Positions 18,540 through 64,000 of a stretch of DNA of 64,000 bases are shown piece by piece; position 1 is the stretch's first letter, and each line of letters starts with the position of its first letter. The notes below the pieces were generated by a model. It did not search any database. It was not told the DNA's origin and saw nothing but the letters and a program-made list of their open reading frames with translations. The stretch lies in NCBI GenBank assembly GCA_951406725.2, contig OX597834.1:28830001-28894000 (forward strand). Direction: 5' to 3'. This DNA comes from Octopus vulgaris (taxonomy: Eukaryota). The translations under genes were made by a program, and so were the position numbers.

Positions 18540-19260
18540 ATGGCTATTGGTTCAATTGTTAATATGCGTTCAACAACATACAAGTAGTACTCAACTAGAG
18601 CTCGCATAGCCGTTTCAAACGTCAGGACTTACTATTACCGAGGGTTTTTACACATCTAAGAGTCCTTTACACATCTAAGACCGCAACCCAAAGATTAGTC
18701 CATCTCTATATGGCCAGAAGATATTCTAACTACTAACAGATGCTGACACTTGACACAGCTCAAGTAAGGTCCACAATAGACTATTGCTCCAATTTTTGGA
18801 ACGGTTGTGTTGCTACGTACCTTGACATCCTGGACCTCATCCAGAGAAGGGAACCCATTCGAATAACTGCGATTCAATCTGTAACGAGCATATACCGCTT
18901 CATGACCCGTAGGTATGCTGTCTCTTCTCTATCTTTTATATCACTACTATGATGATCTCTGTTCCTCAGAGCTGACAGCTCTTGTGTCTCCAACAATCAG
19001 GCACACCCGCCCTAGCTGACTTTACACCTCTCGCCACATTCTGTGCGTCCACCCCACTCGTTGCCGCACTAACCATTATGTCCAGTTCTTTGTTGGGCCA
19101 TGTCAATGACATGTATAAAGCTGAAATGAATCTCACGTTCTCACTAGCCACAGGTGGGACGAATTTTCGCCTCCCTGTGATATATATTGTGTTTTTATAC
19201 ACTGCATGTCCATTAGAGACTTTACCTCTACCGTACCTGTGATACATGAGTATGAAGGTG
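18540..19260 (+). mobile_element. Degraded CR1-group LINE, C-terminal region of the RT ORF
   Basis: AQVRSTIDYCSNFWNG...LDLIQRR...RRYAVSSLS resembles the YKAQVRPxxEYCSHxW...LDRxQxR motif; frameshifted. Confidence 0.7.
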
Positions 19261-24399: not shown

Positions 24400-25440
24400 T
24401 AGATCTTCTTTGAAGGTGATGTGCCATGTCTTCTTGGGTCTCCCTATCTTCTTTCTTCCCTCTGACAGTACCCAGTATACAGCTGTCTTGAATATTCGTT
24501 CTCCTGTCAGTAGGGAAATACGACAGCAACTCTCACTATTCTTTCTTGTCCCAATCTCCTGCAAGCTGCGCAGATTGGCTTTTCTCAAGACTTCAGAGTT
24601 TGTGATTCTGTCCCCGAAGGCCAGTAATTTTCAATCATTTTGGGGTTTTTTTTCTTTTTTGTATTTGTGGATCCCCTTGACTAATATTCTATTCAGGTGA
24701 ACCCCTATAGCTATATGATATTTAAAATCTAGCTTTATAGATATTTCTTTTAAAATTCCTATTTTGCTTTTCATACATAAACATGTGTGGGTTGAACGAC
24801 TCGTATGTATAATGTTAGAAAAAAAGAACCTAGCTGATTCTTGCAATAAAGATATCTGAATCAAAATTTTTCATGGACCCTTAAAATATTACAGCAGAAC
24901 CCCAAAACCCCAAAAATCTTACATGGACCATCAGGTGTCATAGGGACCTTAGTTGAAAGCCACTACTGTAGGTGATCGTGATCTTGAGTATTCTTCATAG
25001 AGACCATTGGTAGGATGCATTCAACCGTTGAGTAATCTCGGCAGTCATTTTTCAAGTTTCTCGACATAGATTGCTGTTGCCAAGACAACGCTGTAGCCCA
25101 GCCGGATCTTCTTACGGTTGCTAATCAAAGCGATGGCTCAGGTCCGGCTCGTTCCTCTCAACCCTGCTCGATTCTGGAGTTGATACGTGCTTCAGTACCC
25201 TCTTAGTAGCAATAATGCTGTCCAGGTAGGTGTTCTTGATTCACAAGGATTTACGTGTCTTACCCACTGTTCTGCGCCACCTTGTCTTTCTCAGAGCTGA
25301 TCCTTAGGCCTACCTTTACCGCTTCTTCAGCCACTTTGGCTGTCTTGCTGAGTGTGATTCTGCTATGAGCACAATATCATCAGCATTGTTCAAATCCGCT
25401 GGGCATCTGCCTACAGTCTGCTATATTTCGGCAGATGGTT
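24400..25440 (-). mobile_element. Degraded RTE-clade LINE (RT and C-terminus) interrupted by a hAT-like MITE (about 24620-24967)
   Basis: ADDIVL RT motif near 25370-25385; GRKKIGRPKKTW C-terminal motif near 24425-24460. Confidence 0.75.
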
Positions 25441-27076: not shown

Positions 27077-27819
27077 GTGGTGGTGATGATGATGATGATG
27101 ACGATGATGGTGATGGTGATGATGATGATGTTGATGATGATGGTGATGGTGATGATGATGATGACGATGATGGTGATGGTGATGATGATGATGTTGATGA
27201 TGATGGTGATGGTGATGATGATGATGACGATGATGGTGATGGTGATGATGATGATGGTGGTGGTGGTGATTCTGGAGTTGATACGTGCTTCAGTACCCTC
27301 TTAGTAGCAATAATGCTGCCCAGGTAGGTGTTCTTGATTCACAAGAACAACAACAAGAACAAGAACAACAAGAACAACAACAACAACAACAACAGCAGCA
27401 GCAATATCAACAACAACAACAACAACAGCAACAACAACATCAATAACAATCAAAAATACGATATCCGTGACTGCAAACAACGACGACGACGACGACGACG
27501 ACGACACTAAGAACTGATAATAACAATCACAACAGCAACAGCAACAACAAAAAGAAGACGAATGGTAAGAGCTGACAACCAAATACATTGAGACGTAAAC
27601 CGAAGTGTTATGTGTGCGAGTCTTGCCTGAAGACATCACATTTGCAAAAAGGAAAAAAAAAAAGAAAAAGAAACGGCTTCTGTAGAACGCTGTGGCAGTA
27701 GTAGTAGTAGTAGTAGCTGGTGGTGGTGGTGGTGGTGACGGTGGTGTTGATTTCGTGATTTTTGTACATCTAGTAGTGTAAGATGAAGTTTTGTTTTCTT
27801 TTTAAAAAAGCATTGAAAT

Positions 27820-29975: not shown

Positions 29976-30299
29976 GATCCGCTTCCTTAACCTTTTTGAT
30001 ACCAACTTACCTGCGACCGCCCTACTTCTGCGATACTAAAGTTTAAGCCTTCTTTTATGATTTTATAAAGGAAATATTTTTTTGTTAAATCAAGTTCCAC
30101 AAGCACCAGCTTAGTAATGGAGAGGATAGTGATTTTTCTGTCTCCTTCATGAGCAGTGAGCTTCATTATAAATGCTTGTTTATGTTTCGTACCATTGATG
30201 TAAATAAATTAAAACCACTTTTATTATTCACCTTTCTATTTCTTCAACAACAGCCAACAAATATGAAAGGATACTGCAATCAACATAATTTGCCTGGTT

Positions 30300-30704
30300 A
30301 CTCTTTTACTCTTTTACTTGTTTCAGTCATTTGACTGCGGCCATGCTGGAGCACCGCCTTTAGTCGAGCAAATCGACCCCGGGACTTATTCTTTGTAAGC
30401 CCAGTACTTATTCTATCGGTCTCTTTTGCCGAACCGCTAAGTAACGGGGACGTAAACACACCAGCATCGGTTGTCAAGCAATGCTAGGGGGACAAACACA
30501 GACACACAAATACACACACACATATATATATACATATATACGACAGGCTTCTTTTCAGTTTCCGTCTACCAAATCCACTCGCAAGGCATTGGTCGGCCCG
30601 GGGCTATAGCAGAAGACACTTGCCCAAGATGCCACGCAGTGGGACTGAACCCGGAACCATGTGGTGGTTAGCAAGCTACTGACCACACAGCCACTCCTAC
30701 GCCT
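30300..30704 (-). mobile_element. SINE family B, full length, flanked by a direct duplication of about 87 bp
   Basis: Matches family B; flanks 30194-30299 and 30705-30791. Confidence 0.9.
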
Positions 30705-30798
30705 ATTGATGTAAATAAATTAAAGCCACTTTTATTATTCACCTTTCTATTTCTTCAACAACAGCCAACAATCAACATAATTTGCCTGGTTCTGGATT

Positions 30799-31320: not shown

Positions 31321-31744
31321 ACTTTAATAATTGCTTTCTTTTCCTAAAAAATTACATAATCCAAACTAATTAACAAGCAACTTCCTTTGTTACAGTATAG
31401 ATATGTGGTCACAGAAGAGTTGGTAATCAAATCTAAATTAATATAATTCTTTGACTTGTCAACTCGTTTCTACATAACATTATTGCTATTTGTTATTGCT
31501 TTGTCGATCATTCATACACAGAAAATAATTCAGGTTTATTAGGAGCTGCTAATTCGAGAGCTTCGTTTGCTCAACAGCAACAACACCAGCGGAAGCGACA
31601 CCACCATCATCATTATCAGCACCAGCAGCATCAGCAGCACCATTGATAATATGTCTTCATCCTACAACTCGAATTGTATAGTCTCCATTAACTCATTGAA
31701 ATTAAGACCTATCAAGACTACTTCAGACCACCAAAATTTGTCTC

Positions 31745-32697
31745 GGGCATCGCTGTGTGGTAAGAAGTTTGTTTCACACCTCAAGGTTCCGAGTTCAGTC
31801 CCACTGCGTGGCACTTTGGGCAGGTGTCTTCTACTGTAGCCCCGGGCCGACCAAAGCCTTGTGAGTGGATTTGGTAGACAGAATCGGAAAGAAGGCGGCG
31901 AGCTGGCAGAAACGGGTGTGCCTGATTGTTGGAGACACAAGAGCTGTCAACTCTGAGGAACAGAGATCATCATAGTAGTGATATAAAAGATAGAGAAGAG
32001 ACAGCATACCTACGGGTCATGAAGCGGTATAAGCTCGTTACATGCTCGTTACGGTATATGCTCGTTACGTTAAAGGCGGCGAACTGGCAGAAACGTTAGC
32101 ACGCCGGGCGAAATGCTTAGCGGTATTTCGTCTGTCTTTACGTTCTGAGTTCAAATTTTCGCCGAGGTCGACTTTGCTTTTCATCCTTTCGGGGTCGATA
32201 AATTAAGTACCAGTTACGCACTGGGGTCGATGTAATCGACTTAATCCCTTTGTCTGTCCTTGTTTGTCCCCTCTATGTTTAGCCCATTGTGGGCAATAAA
32301 GAAATTAGAAACTGAAAGAAGCCCATTGTATGTATATGTGTGTGTATGTATGTATGTATGTATGTTTATCGCCCTATCACCGTTGGGCAACCGGTGTTGG
32401 TGTGTTTACGTCTCCCCAACTTAGCAGTTCGGCAAAGAGGCAGATAGAATAAGTACTAAGCTTAAGAAATAAGCCCTGAGGCCGATTTGTTCGACTAAAA
32501 CCTTTCAGGCGGTACTCCAGCATGTCTGCAGCCAAATGACCGTAATAAGCATAAGAATAAAAGAATATATATATATATATGGTACCGGGTTCAGTCCCAC
32601 TGCGTGGGACCTTGAGCAAGTGTCTTCTACTCGACCAAAGCCTTGTGAGTGGATTTGGTATATGGAAACTGAAAGAAGCCCGTCGTATATATGTATG

Positions 32698-37849: not shown

Positions 37850-38165
37850 CGTGTTTTGATATAATGACTATATTACAATGTTTTAACCCCAACGCTTAAT
37901 GCACAGCTACTTCACATTCCAGTGAAGTAGCTGTGCATCTGGGTTGGGGCCAGTTCTTCAGTGTTTATTTGGAGAGAAAATTGAAAAATAAAACCTAAAT
38001 CGGTGCATACATAGAGAGAGGGCGAGGAGGAAGAAGAGGAGAAGAGAGAGAGGGGAGAAGAGAGAGGGGAGAAGAGAGAGGGGAGAAGAAAGAGAGGGGG
38101 AGAAGAGAGAGGGAGAGAGACACATGTAAGGCAGAGAAAACAGACAAAGACAAATAACGATTTAC

Positions 38166-38175
38166 TTTCCGCCAT
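38166..38175 (-). CDS. Candidate start exon ATG GCG GAA A of an unidentified minus-strand gene (overlaps the YY1 motif AAGATGGCGG)
   Basis: aaagATGGCGGAAA|gtaaat followed by CT-rich intron-like DNA, about 500 bp from an NRF1/ETS cluster. No downstream exons were identified. Confidence 0.35.
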
Positions 38176-38289
38176 CTTTAACATGAATTTGATAACACAA
38201 AAAAAAAAACAAACGACCCCTTTTATTTAAAACCCTCCTTCCTGGCGGCGGAGCCAGTAACAGAAGAGTGGCATATTGATCCCAACACC

Positions 38290-38480
38290 ACAGTGTTCAG
38301 TCCCTGTTGTGACGTGGTGGCTTGTGTGCCTTCAATGACCTTGAGAGCCGTGCCAGTGGAGTGCAAGCTCCTGGTAGAGACACCTATGCCGGACAGGTCA
38401 AAGGATAAAGGCCAGACTAATATGGACCTCTTTTGCCCAGAGATAAAGATGGGTTTACATAAGACCAACACTCCTATCTA
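38290..38480 (+). mobile_element. RTE-clade LINE 5'UTR relic (second copy at about 39555-39745)
   Basis: ggtggcttgtgtgccttcaatgacc...ctcctggtag...tgccggacaggtcaaagg...ccagactaa resembles RTE 5' ends. Confidence 0.6.
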
Positions 38481-38670
38481 GAAAGAAAGCTAAGGTAGGG
38501 AAGCTTGGACGATAACAGTGCGTAACATTTTTTTCTTTGGTCAGTAAATGTTATTTTCTATTTGCTTTTATCTAGAAATCAAATGAAATGACTGCTATTC
38601 ACTCCAAACTTTCCTTTTGTGAGCTGGACATTAATGTTTTTGTGGTGTTGGTGAGAGAGGATGACGGATA

Positions 38671-38833
38671 GGGGAGGGCGGAAGTAAGGCTTGCAGGGCG
38701 CATGCGCGACAGGAAGCGGAAGCGGCAGACAGGACGCACGTGTGGGATCGAGGGGTTGCTGTAGAGACGACGAAGGCACGAGATGCATCGAGTTGGCTGA
38801 GAGGGATCCGAACTAATCTTCGACGAGGTAAGG
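38671..38833 (+). promoter_or_regulatory. CpG-rich housekeeping-type promoter and non-coding first exon, copy 1
   Basis: GGGCGGAAGT (ETS/GC box), GCGCATGCGC (NRF1, 38698), GGAAGCGGAAG, CACGTG (38737), donor GAG|GTAAGG at 38828. Branch-like CTGAC and acceptor tttcag end at 38926. Confidence 0.7.
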
Positions 38834-39935
38834 CCCGATTGCATTTCCATTCTCCCTTTTCTGTTGTCCTCTTTTCATCGTTCACACCACAGTTTTGAAA
38901 CTGACCAATTTTCCATTACATTTCAGACAGATTCAACACTGAGTTGTTGAAGCAGAAATATCGTTATAGCAAATATTCTGCTCAATACCACAGTTGCTTG
39001 ACTTTAAACCACATGATTATGTCCCTTAGTGGCTGACAATATGTGCATCTTTGATCATGAGCAGGAGTGGTGCTGGAGCATCATATCCATGTGTTGAGAG
39101 GAATTCTTTTGGGGTTTGAATAAATGTAAGAAAAGCAAAGTTTGAAGGAAATATTAGCCATTTTTCATACTTTCTAGGGATAAGCAAATAGGAACTGACA
39201 GTTGCTACCCATGGACAAACATCGTGTTGTACAGTGTAATTCAAAACTAACAGAGCCTGTAAGAGGAAGGTTTTCTCTCAGAGAAGCATATAGGGTGCTG
39301 AAGAAGAGCCGAAAAGCAGTGATCCAACTGAAGAGAAGCAGAAAAGACAGCGCTGGATGAAGAACAGTGGAGATATATCATCGATAGCCTAAATTCCACG
39401 GGGAGTATGTATATTGATCAAACATTGGAATTCTCAAAGTAGTCGGTATTCATGAATTTGATAACACAAAAAAACCAAACGACCCCTTTTATTTAAAACC
39501 CTCCTTCCTGGCGGCGGAGCCAGTAACAGAAGAGTGGCATATTGATCCCAACACCACAGTGTTCAGTCCCTGTTGTGACGTGGTGGCTTGTGTGCCTTCA
39601 ATGACCTTGAGAGCCGTGCCAGTGGAGTGCAAGCTCCTGGTAGAGACACCTATGCCGGACAGGTCAAAGGATAAAGGCCAGACTAATATGGACCTCTTTT
39701 GCCCAGAGATAAAGATGGGTTTACATAAGACCAACACTCCTATCTAGAAAGAAAGCTAAGATAGGGAAGCTTGGACGATAACTGCGTAACATTTTTTTTC
39801 TTTGGTCAGTAAATGTTATTTTCTATTTGCTTTTATCTAGAAATCAAATGAAATGACTGCTATTCACTCCAAACTTTGCTTTAGTGAGCTGGACATTAAT
39901 GTTTTTGTGGTGTTGGTGAGAGAGGATGACGGATA

Positions 39936-40098
39936 GGGGAGGGCGGAAGTAGGGCTTGCAGGGCGCATGCGCGGCAGGAAGCGGAAGCGGCAGGCAGGAC
40001 GCACGTGTGGGATCGAGCAGTTGCTGTAGAGACGACGAAGGCACGAGACGCATCGAGTTGGCTGAGAGGGATCCGAACTAATCTTCGACGAGGTAAGG
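39936..40098 (+). promoter_or_regulatory. Same promoter and first exon, copy 2
   Basis: Same motifs; NRF1 at 39963, donor at 40093. Confidence 0.7.
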
Positions 40099-40763
40099 CC
40101 CGATTGCATTTCCATTCTCCCTTTTTCTGTTGTCCTCTTTTCATCGTTCACATCACAGTTTTGAAACTGACCAATTTTCCATTACATTTCAGACAGATTC
40201 AACACTGAGTTGTTGAAGCAGAAATATCGTTATAGCAAATATTCTGCTCAATACCACAGTTGCTTGACTTTAAACCACATGATTATGTCCCTTAGTGGCT
40301 GACAATATGTGCATCTTTGATCATGAGCAGGAGTGGAGCTGGAGCATCATATCCATGTGCTGAGAGGAATTCTTTTGGGGTTTGAATAAATGTAAGAAAA
40401 GCAAAGTTTGAAGGAAATATTAGCCATTTTTCATACTTTCTAGGGATAAGCAAATAGGAACTGACAGTTGCTACCCATGGACAAACATCGTGTTGTACAG
40501 TGTAATTCAAAACTAACAGAGCCTGTAAGAGGAAGGTTTTCTCTCAGAGAAGCATATAGGGTGTTGAAGAAGAGCCGAAAAGCAGTGATCCAACTGAAGA
40601 GAAGCAGAAAAGACAGCGCTGGATGAAGAACAGTGGAGATATATCATCGATAGCCTAAATTCCACGGGGAGTATGTATATTGATCAAACATTGGAATTCT
40701 CAAAGTAGTCGGCCCATCGTAGAAGAAATAGTAGTAAAATATCCCACAAATCTTTTCCATATT

Positions 40764-61608: not shown

Positions 61609-61841
61609 CACACATACACACAAACACGTGAGTGTATGCCTATATATACATATATATATATATATACATATTTCTACATGAAATGAGTCAGATCAGGGTA
61701 GATGTGAAACATAACCAAAAAGATGTTGAGATGGTTTGTTTGGCAGTGAACATGAAAGATTCCAGACAAATAGTTTGTCACGGTAAAATGGTACAGGTGG
61801 CAGAAATGTCTTGGAGCTATTAAGATCAATGTACCAAAAGG
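60250..61841 (-). other. COP1: Probable COP1 3'UTR (distal end not determined)
   Basis: Follows the stop codon directly; unique sequence interleaved with (CA)/(TA) repeats. No polyA site could be fixed. Confidence 0.45.
61275..61600. repeat. Tandem duplication of about 165 bp within the probable COP1 3'UTR
   Basis: cttgatcaaagNacataccta...catccatgtgtgtatatgtNtattgtg occurs twice. Confidence 0.8.
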
Positions 61842-63532: not shown

Positions 63533-64000
63533 GACACACACATATTTCTACATGAAATGAGTCAGATCAGGGTAGATATGAAACACACACACACATATAT
63601 ATATATCATCATCATTTAACGTCCGTTTTCCGTGCTAGCACGGGTTGTATATATATATACACACACGATGGGCTTCCACACAGTTTCCATCTAACTCCGC
63701 TCAAGAGGCTATAGTAAAGGACACTTGCCCAAGATGTCATGCAGTGGGGCTGATCCCAATACACACACACACATACACACGTACACACATGCACATATTC
63801 AAATGCATACACATGTACACGTGTGTGAGATGGTCAAAAGTCATTGCCTTTGCATCTGTCAGAAATCATGGATGTATGGAGAGAGCTTGAAATGGTCAAG
63901 GAAGAATTTAGATATCTGTTGGCAAGTAGAAATTAGTTCTTAATTAAAGATTTGAACAGGAAGATGGTTGACATATAAACATCAACAGAAAAAAAAAACC

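What the first reader, a model, noticed from the sequence alone, without database searches (positions are those of the whole stretch)
31894..32306. Chimeric retro-insertion: a SINE captured 130 bp from 13 kb away in the same locus
The order is: 20-nt SINE A head; inverted copy of 18880-19009 (two mismatches, 31913-32042); two further stutters of gctcgttac; full SINE A. All of it lies within an imperfect TSD (agaatcggaaagaa / agaaactgaaagaa) inside a SINE B. The donor is a decayed LINE relic, so near-identity means local capture. The orientation is what RT template jumping onto a minus-strand pre-mRNA spanning both sites would give, consistent with the candidate start exon at 38175. DNA-templated end joining is the alternative.
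Basis: partly seen in the sequence, partly recalled or inferred. Interest (0 to 1): 0.7.

Follow-up and report, generated by a model that had tools for sequence, protein, structure and literature searches.

The report
SINE with flipped 13-kb-distant DNA copy
A short jumping element in an octopus genome carries at its front end a backwards 130-base copy of DNA lying 13 kb away, likely picked up by a copying slip while the insertion was being sealed; it is a real but probably functionless scar of a known kind, unusual mainly for its reach.

Summary
The structure is real. 31913-32042 is an inverted copy of 18880-19009 (128/130), the only near-identical match a genome search returned. It lies between a SINE head and a full SINE inside an older SINE. 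Contigs from four runs hold the junctions and suggest the copy was first exact. All three donor-derived pieces end at 18880-18881, so the template had a discrete end there. The pre-mRNA reading is unproven: no host gene spanning both sites was found, and the 38175 exon got no support. Three look-alike events elsewhere have cis donors 1.9, 2.5 and 95 kb away, all inverted and each the 5' flank of another SINE copy. Direct re-copies of the true target site give the same head-copy-SINE layout. I favour one insertion event with DNA-templated synthesis (0.5) over a jump onto nascent RNA (0.27) or repair from a lost SINE allele (0.18). One SINE carries a pre-tRNA 5' exon, so RNA joins do occur in this family. 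It works like known LINE/SINE templated 5' insertions, with a longer reach. The scan noted similar scars in other genomes.

The parts
31752..31893 (+). 5' part of the older host SINE B (consensus 13-155)
31880..31893 (+). left target-site duplication, 14 nt, 2 mismatches to the right copy; this variant occurs in 1 of 167 SINE B sites of the 1.26-Mb region
31892..31914 (+). SINE A head (about 21-23 nt); shares 2 nt with the captured piece; differs from the second head at one base
31913..32042 (+). captured piece: reverse complement of 18880-19009, 128/130
32042..32052 (+). first stutter, exact copy of donor 18891-18881
32052..32068 (+). second stutter, exact copy of donor 18897-18881 (keeps the donor base that is changed at 32032)
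32068..32072 (+). 5-nt piece matching donor 18886-18882 or SINE A positions 21-25
32074..32305 (+). full-length SINE A, 96% to the local consensus
32307..32320 (+). right target-site duplication
32308..32567 (+). 3' part of the host SINE B (consensus 143-409)
18880..19009 (-). donor stretch; no SINE A at it in this assembly; frame intact across 18881
18782..19016 (+). decayed reading frames of an old dispersed repeat family (LINE-like by recall); the captured piece is antisense to them

Best explanation
A SINE A sits in an older SINE B with a 130-nt inverted copy of DNA from 13 kb away, two stutters and an extra head at its 5' end, likely all made in one insertion event when the loose end being sealed briefly copied a DNA end or single-stranded gap at 18881. 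Shown: the layout, the unique local donor, the shared end of all donor pieces, 0-2 nt shared at each joint. Inferred: target-primed reverse transcription began at 32306; during 5' joining the growing strand met a template with a hard end at 18881 (a nick, a break, or the edge of a long resected tract), restarted there three times, ran 130 nt once, switched by 2 nt to SINE position 21 and was joined to the true target. Whether the element's reverse transcriptase or a host repair polymerase did the copying is not resolved. No function is expected.
For: (1) Donor pieces of 130, 11 and 17 nt all end at 18880-18881. (2) The same family re-copies its true target end with the same head-copy-SINE layout: 65 nt at L247, 18 nt at L273, 21 nt at C7:15079545 and a short one at C5:58249060. 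17 of 32 young full SINE A with an exact TSD call have 3 or more extra 5' bases, several matching the adjacent flank; some TSD calls are false. (3) Three look-alikes have cis donors, all inverted: C1:32964410, 99 nt, 2.5 kb, 96%, the only other match in the genome; C6:23833332, 32 nt, 1.9 kb; C2:191132589, 67 nt, 95 kb. With ours that is 4 of 4 inverted (p = 0.0625 if unbiased). A DNA route predicts this, because direct-oriented switches would tend to end as deletions (Alu precedent up to 99 kb, PMC3415434 section 8); a pre-mRNA route need not. (4) The piece is intergenic or intronic repeat sequence, antisense to the relic's frames, with no poly(A). (5) No spanning transcript found. (6) DNA-templated 5' extras are described for L1, zebrafish LINEs and R2.
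Against: The three look-alikes all use SINE homology at the donor and ours has none, so they may be another route. 4 of 4 is a small, pattern-selected set, and one unresolved direct case exists in SINE B (region coordinate 111790, 4.2 kb). Repeated entry at one end with 0-1 nt shared also fits reverse-transcriptase jumps onto an RNA 3' end (PMC10830420 passages), and one SINE A carries a pre-tRNA 5' exon. No scar is visible at 18881. The TSD (2/14) is more diverged than the captured piece (2/130; p about 0.02) and the two heads differ, which suits two steps. Local copies are not enriched at SINE 5' ends: 9 of 553 against 12 of 476 3' ends and 16 of 600 random sites (Fisher p = 0.31).
Confidence: 0.5

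Rival explanations
1. Reverse-transcriptase template jump onto nascent RNA. After finishing the SINE, the enzyme jumped end-to-end onto the free 3' end of a minus-strand transcript ending at 18881, restarted three times, copied 130 nt, then jumped back to SINE RNA at position 21.
For: Same-end entries with 0-1 nt shared. Orientation fits a minus-strand RNA. RNA-level capture exists in this family: L240 carries 3 nt of leader plus the 38-nt 5' exon of an intron-containing tRNA gene on another chromosome; RNA ligation could also explain it. A 95-kb reach suits a long pre-mRNA. A minus-strand gene lies downstream. Double jumps are described in a fungus (PMC2104539 abstract). No scar at the donor.
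Against: No transcript or exon over the region was shown. One event agrees with either strand half the time. 4 of 4 distant cis donors are inverted. The family makes the same stutters at its DNA target ends.
Confidence: 0.27
2. Two steps with a lost donor element. An older SINE A at 31894 broke near position 21 and was repaired from a second, inverted SINE A that once stood at 18881 on some haplotype; copying ran past that element's stuttered 5' junction and 130 nt into its flank. That allele was later lost.
For: All three look-alikes copy the 5' flank of a neighbouring inverted SINE A; at C6 the new copy shares the neighbour's variants for about 50 nt. Stutters are what a normal 5' junction at 18881 would look like. 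The TSD is more diverged than the captured piece and the heads differ. One low-depth contig runs unbroken from 31912 into the SINE (X6).
Against: No SINE at 18881 in this assembly; run X2 shows a donor path that leaves at 32032, as an empty site would (inferred). It needs recombination within 13 kb or repair off the homolog. The unbroken X6 contig can come from pruning at low depth, as in X8.
Confidence: 0.18
3. Unrelated later templated insertion that landed in the SINE head with a 22-nt duplication, or an assembly artefact.
For: Short local duplications are common here away from SINEs (16 of 600 random sites).
Against: The duplicated head starts at the SINE 5' end. Junction contigs occur in 4 of 4 runs laid, under four organism labels, so it is not an assembly error.
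Confidence: 0.05

Closest known systems
Templated insertions at human L1 (10.1101/2024.08.27.596794, passages; PMC11702581, passages; PMC10191854, passages)
   Same: A short genomic stretch (under 250 bp) is copied into the 5' junction during insertion, sometimes as an inverted fold-back of 52-220 bp.
   Different: Reported templates typically lie within 15 bp of the site or just upstream; here 13 kb, with stutters and a return to the SINE head, in a mollusc germline. Supplementary figures that may list longer reaches were not seen.
5' extra nucleotides of zebrafish ZfL2 LINEs, 'annealing' pathway (PMC4245944, passages; PMC4760211, abstract and section 5)
   Same: Extra 5' bases templated by flank or element DNA, 1-2 nt microhomology.
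   Different: Those come from the flank at the junction; here the main piece is distant and inverted.
Alu cDNA recombining with a nearby genomic Alu (PMC3415434, section 8)
   Same: A new SINE engages another copy up to 99 kb away, as the three look-alikes do.
   Different: Those lose the TSD and delete or rearrange DNA; ours keeps a TSD and has no SINE at the donor.
RNA template-switch chimeras: tripartite MGL/Mg-SINE/WEIRD (PMC2104539, abstract); U6-L1 and mRNA-L1 (PMC13174262, passages); R2 'extra template' and snap-back junctions (PMC11371274, passages)
   Same: Three-part order inside one TSD.
   Different: Their partners are abundant RNAs or exons taken in trans and often recurrent; ours is single-copy local repeat sequence with no shown transcript.

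Membership tests
LINE-mobilised SINE insertion (TPRT) | Target-site duplication around the whole insert | tested here: met
   14 nt, 2 mismatches; the host SINE B joins up across it
LINE-mobilised SINE insertion (TPRT) | Intact 3' tail at the priming side of a high-copy short element | tested here: met
   full copy, 96% to consensus; 365 SINE A pieces in 1.26 Mb
Templated 5' insertion at a non-LTR element | Extra 5' sequence copied from local genomic sequence | tested here: met
   only near-identical match lies 13 kb away
Templated 5' insertion at a non-LTR element | Short microhomology at the joints | tested here: met
   2, 1, 1 and 1 nt at the four inner joints
Templated 5' insertion at a non-LTR element | Extra sequence arrived in the same event as the element | tested here: inconclusive
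   all four runs hold both together; no SINE-only or empty allele among the rows shown, which were cut; TSD divergence hints at two steps
Templated 5' insertion at a non-LTR element | Template is DNA | not testable with these tools
   inferred from orientation of look-alikes
RNA template-switch chimera | Captured piece is sense to a real transcript | tested here: inconclusive
   no spanning transcript found; no stranded raw RNA run was offered
RNA template-switch chimera | Partner is a known RNA or ends at an RNA processing site | tested here: not met
   no Rfam match in the donor locus L002, no poly(A); met for the separate locus L240
Composite, multi-copy SINE subfamily | The chimera occurs at several loci | tested here: not met
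   one near-identical other copy only, the donor
Donor as LINE (CR1/L2-type) relic | Homology to a LINE ORF2 | tested here: inconclusive
   dispersed coding-like family; no database hit; resemblance is recalled

The most novel reading that the evidence does not exclude
Octopus SINE insertions jump onto the 3' ends of nascent transcripts of the locus they land in, up to about 100 kb away, so each chimera records germline transcription (strand and polymerase position) at the moment of insertion; the pre-tRNA exon chimera would be the trans version of the same route.
Probability: 0.2. Interest if true: 0.7.

Novelty: new variant of a known kind. Interest (0 to 1): 0.3.

Why it matters
How the 5' end of a LINE or SINE is joined is still open. 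This SINE family is abundant and leaves readable junctions, so orientation, distance and gene strand of distant captures could separate DNA-templated repair from jumps onto nascent RNA on public data alone. The locus itself shows no sign of function. If the DNA route holds, the finding only extends the known reach from tens of bases to 13-95 kb.

Tried and rejected
Host gene: 100 of 1626 ORFs from 464 kb scanned against Pfam; only phytochelatin synthase and reverse-transcriptase pieces hit well. Runs X15, X16, X24 (RNA is a guess) on 37900-38920 gave no cover at 38145-38350 and no splice joint; lack of cover proves nothing. Enrichment at SINE 5' ends: none; of the 9 hits only ours is a clear kb-range capture, the rest being long TSDs, SINEs inside older duplications, hairpins or rare repeats. 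An exact-word rescan missed our own event, so both surveys undercount. My first impression that such captures are common was dropped. Head-to-head patterns: most hits are nested insertions or head repeats; one search's pattern was unselective by my mistake. Of 95 distinct events in fetched loci 25 had 22 or more unassigned bases, ours included. Genome-wide donor searches were run for five foreign pieces: two cis donors, two dispersed repeats with no close donor, one multi-copy flank-plus-SINE segment in trans. L185, L192, L277 and L279 were checked only within 1.5-5 kb, without result. Empty-site allele: not seen, tables swamped by SINE contigs. Rfam on 31700-32600: chance hits only. ARAGORN missed the intron-bearing tRNA that Rfam found.

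Full report
Setting. The window is G000:C21:28830001-28894000 in a 2.8-Gb genome. A phytochelatin synthase exon nearby is 98% identical to the Octopus bimaculoides protein, so this is an Octopus species. SINEs make up 11.6% of the O. vulgaris genome (PMC13282606, first of three parts read).

Observation. The 130 nt at 31913-32042 are the reverse complement of 18880-19009 with two mismatches. The genome search returned 27 matches: self, the donor at 98%, and 25 partial relatives at 74-88%. Left of the piece is a SINE A head, right of it two exact re-copies of the donor end (11 and 17 nt), a 5-nt piece, and a full SINE A. The host SINE B joins up across a 14-nt duplication with two mismatches. 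The donor belongs to an old dispersed family with decayed + strand frames. It looks like a LINE ORF2 end by my recall only; three database searches found nothing. The captured piece is antisense to those frames, so under first-strand copying the relic's own mRNA is not the template.

Other samples. Contigs of four runs under four organism labels cover the junctions: X3 31885-32005 and 31976-32098, X6 31912-32099, X2 32002-32096, all without differences, and X8 31892-32069 with one. In X2 a contig of about double depth (40.9 against 22.5 and 19.7) spans 31913-32031 unchanged, which I read as a donor allele that shares the base at 31950. In X8 the insert has the donor base at 32032. Both mismatches therefore look later than the event, and the copy was likely exact. 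One of these runs may be the source of the assembly. No empty allele appeared, but the tables were cut.

Junction logic. All donor pieces end at 18880-18881 and start at different points, with 0-2 nt shared at each joint. The template had a hard end there. Read right to left, it is a free 3' end on the minus strand, RNA or DNA, entered repeatedly, as L1 ORF2p can do (PMC10830420, passages). Read left to right, it is a stop on the plus strand, such as a nick or the edge of a resected tract. The sequence cannot tell these apart. The donor frame is intact across 18881.

Is there a host transcript? I found none. 100 of 1626 ORFs were scanned; none of the 18 from the window hit Pfam. Phytochelatin synthase lies on the minus strand 119-126 kb left of the window start; its first coding exon has a splice acceptor, so a 5' exon lies somewhere upstream, unplaced. 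Two RNA-guess runs gave no contig or splice joint at the 38175 candidate, and nearby sequence draws contigs from many loci. No stranded raw RNA was offered. This neither shows nor excludes a transcript.

How common? In 1.264 Mb, low-copy local matches touched 9 of 553 SINE 5' ends, 12 of 476 3' ends and 16 of 600 random sites (p = 0.31). Ours is the only clear kb-range capture, and the surveys undercount. Small 5' extras are frequent: 17 of 32 young SINE A with an exact TSD call, several copied from the adjacent flank.

Look-alikes. Patterns for head-gap-head gave 206, 16, 23 and 139 matches (overlapping sets, at most 100 listed each). Of 95 distinct events in fetched loci 25 had unassigned middles; ten places picked by eye from the listings were examined with 5-15 kb of flank. 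Three kinds emerged. First, direct re-copies of the true target end (65, 18, 21 nt), the same layout as ours. Second, three cis captures at 2.5, 1.9 and 95 kb, each inverted and each the 5' flank of another SINE A. Third, a trans capture of a pre-tRNA 5' exon ending at the intron boundary. Three other pieces gave no local donor and four were not searched genome-wide.

Mechanism. The first kind shows that this family's 5' joining step copies a DNA end, stutters and returns to the SINE. Ours is most simply that step using an end 13 kb away (0.5). The inverted bias (4 of 4, p = 0.06) fits DNA, where direct switches would tend to delete, as with Alu (PMC3415434, section 8). Against this, the look-alikes use homology that ours lacks, the set is small and selected, and the tRNA case keeps an RNA jump alive (0.27). 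The look-alikes also raise a third route: repair from a SINE that once stood at 18881 (0.18), helped by the TSD being more diverged than the copy (p about 0.02) and by the differing heads.

Known systems. It works like templated insertions at L1 (passages) and the 5' extras of zebrafish LINEs (passages, section 5), with a longer reach than the passages report. It has the three-part order of RNA template-switch chimeras (abstract, passages) but their defining transcript is not shown. PMC2912911 (passages) gave the general models. Eight searches listed no paper on such captures in octopus; the library lacks most subscription journals, and no supplements were read. The scan's notes describe similar inverted copies, 0.5-3 kb away, in other genomes; these are unchecked.

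Verdict. Real, single-copy, old enough to be shared among related lineages, no sign of function. A long-reach variant of a known insertion by-product. Interest 0.3.

Noticed in passing
L240 (G000:C6:91786510); gene at L239 (G000:C2:108912115): A SINE A nested in another SINE A carries 3 nt of leader plus the 38-nt 5' exon of an intron-containing tRNA gene, ending at the exon-intron boundary: a pre-tRNA-exon/SINE chimera made by template jump or RNA ligation.
   Followed up: partly
G000:C1:32964410, C6:23833332, C2:191132589 (L072, L219, L254/L295): SINE A copies that carry the 5' flank of a neighbouring inverted SINE A 2.5, 1.9 and 95 kb away.
   Followed up: yes
window 30299-30793: Minus-strand SINE B with a 23-nt TSD and a 65-nt 5' extra copied directly from 30194-30260.
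   Followed up: partly
window 38182-40712: 1.27-kb tandem duplication at 98%; parts draw many contigs from elsewhere; holds a GC-rich promoter-like motif (motif recalled).
   Followed up: partly
window 25170-25242 and 27268-27340; 61672-61711 and 63546-63585: Short direct local copies about 2 kb apart, set in microsatellites, not at SINE 5' ends.
   Followed up: no
about 552 kb left of the window start (G000:C21, near 28278077): Another SINE A inserted at the same position of a SINE B, with a 15-nt TSD and a 23-nt re-copy of the upstream target.
   Followed up: no
L069, L075, L081, L087, L097 and others: SINE A often inserts into SINE A near position 49, with apparent duplications of up to about 80 nt; heads are also amplified in tandem (L076, L084, L090).
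   Followed up: partly
L036:329-754 and L035: Phytochelatin synthase gene, minus strand, four coding exons, 5' exon unplaced.
   Followed up: partly
window 31884-31886: The two TSD mismatches turn the left copy into a word found in one SINE A head variant; a tiny extra templated patch is possible. One of the two bases is shared with run X3.
   Followed up: no
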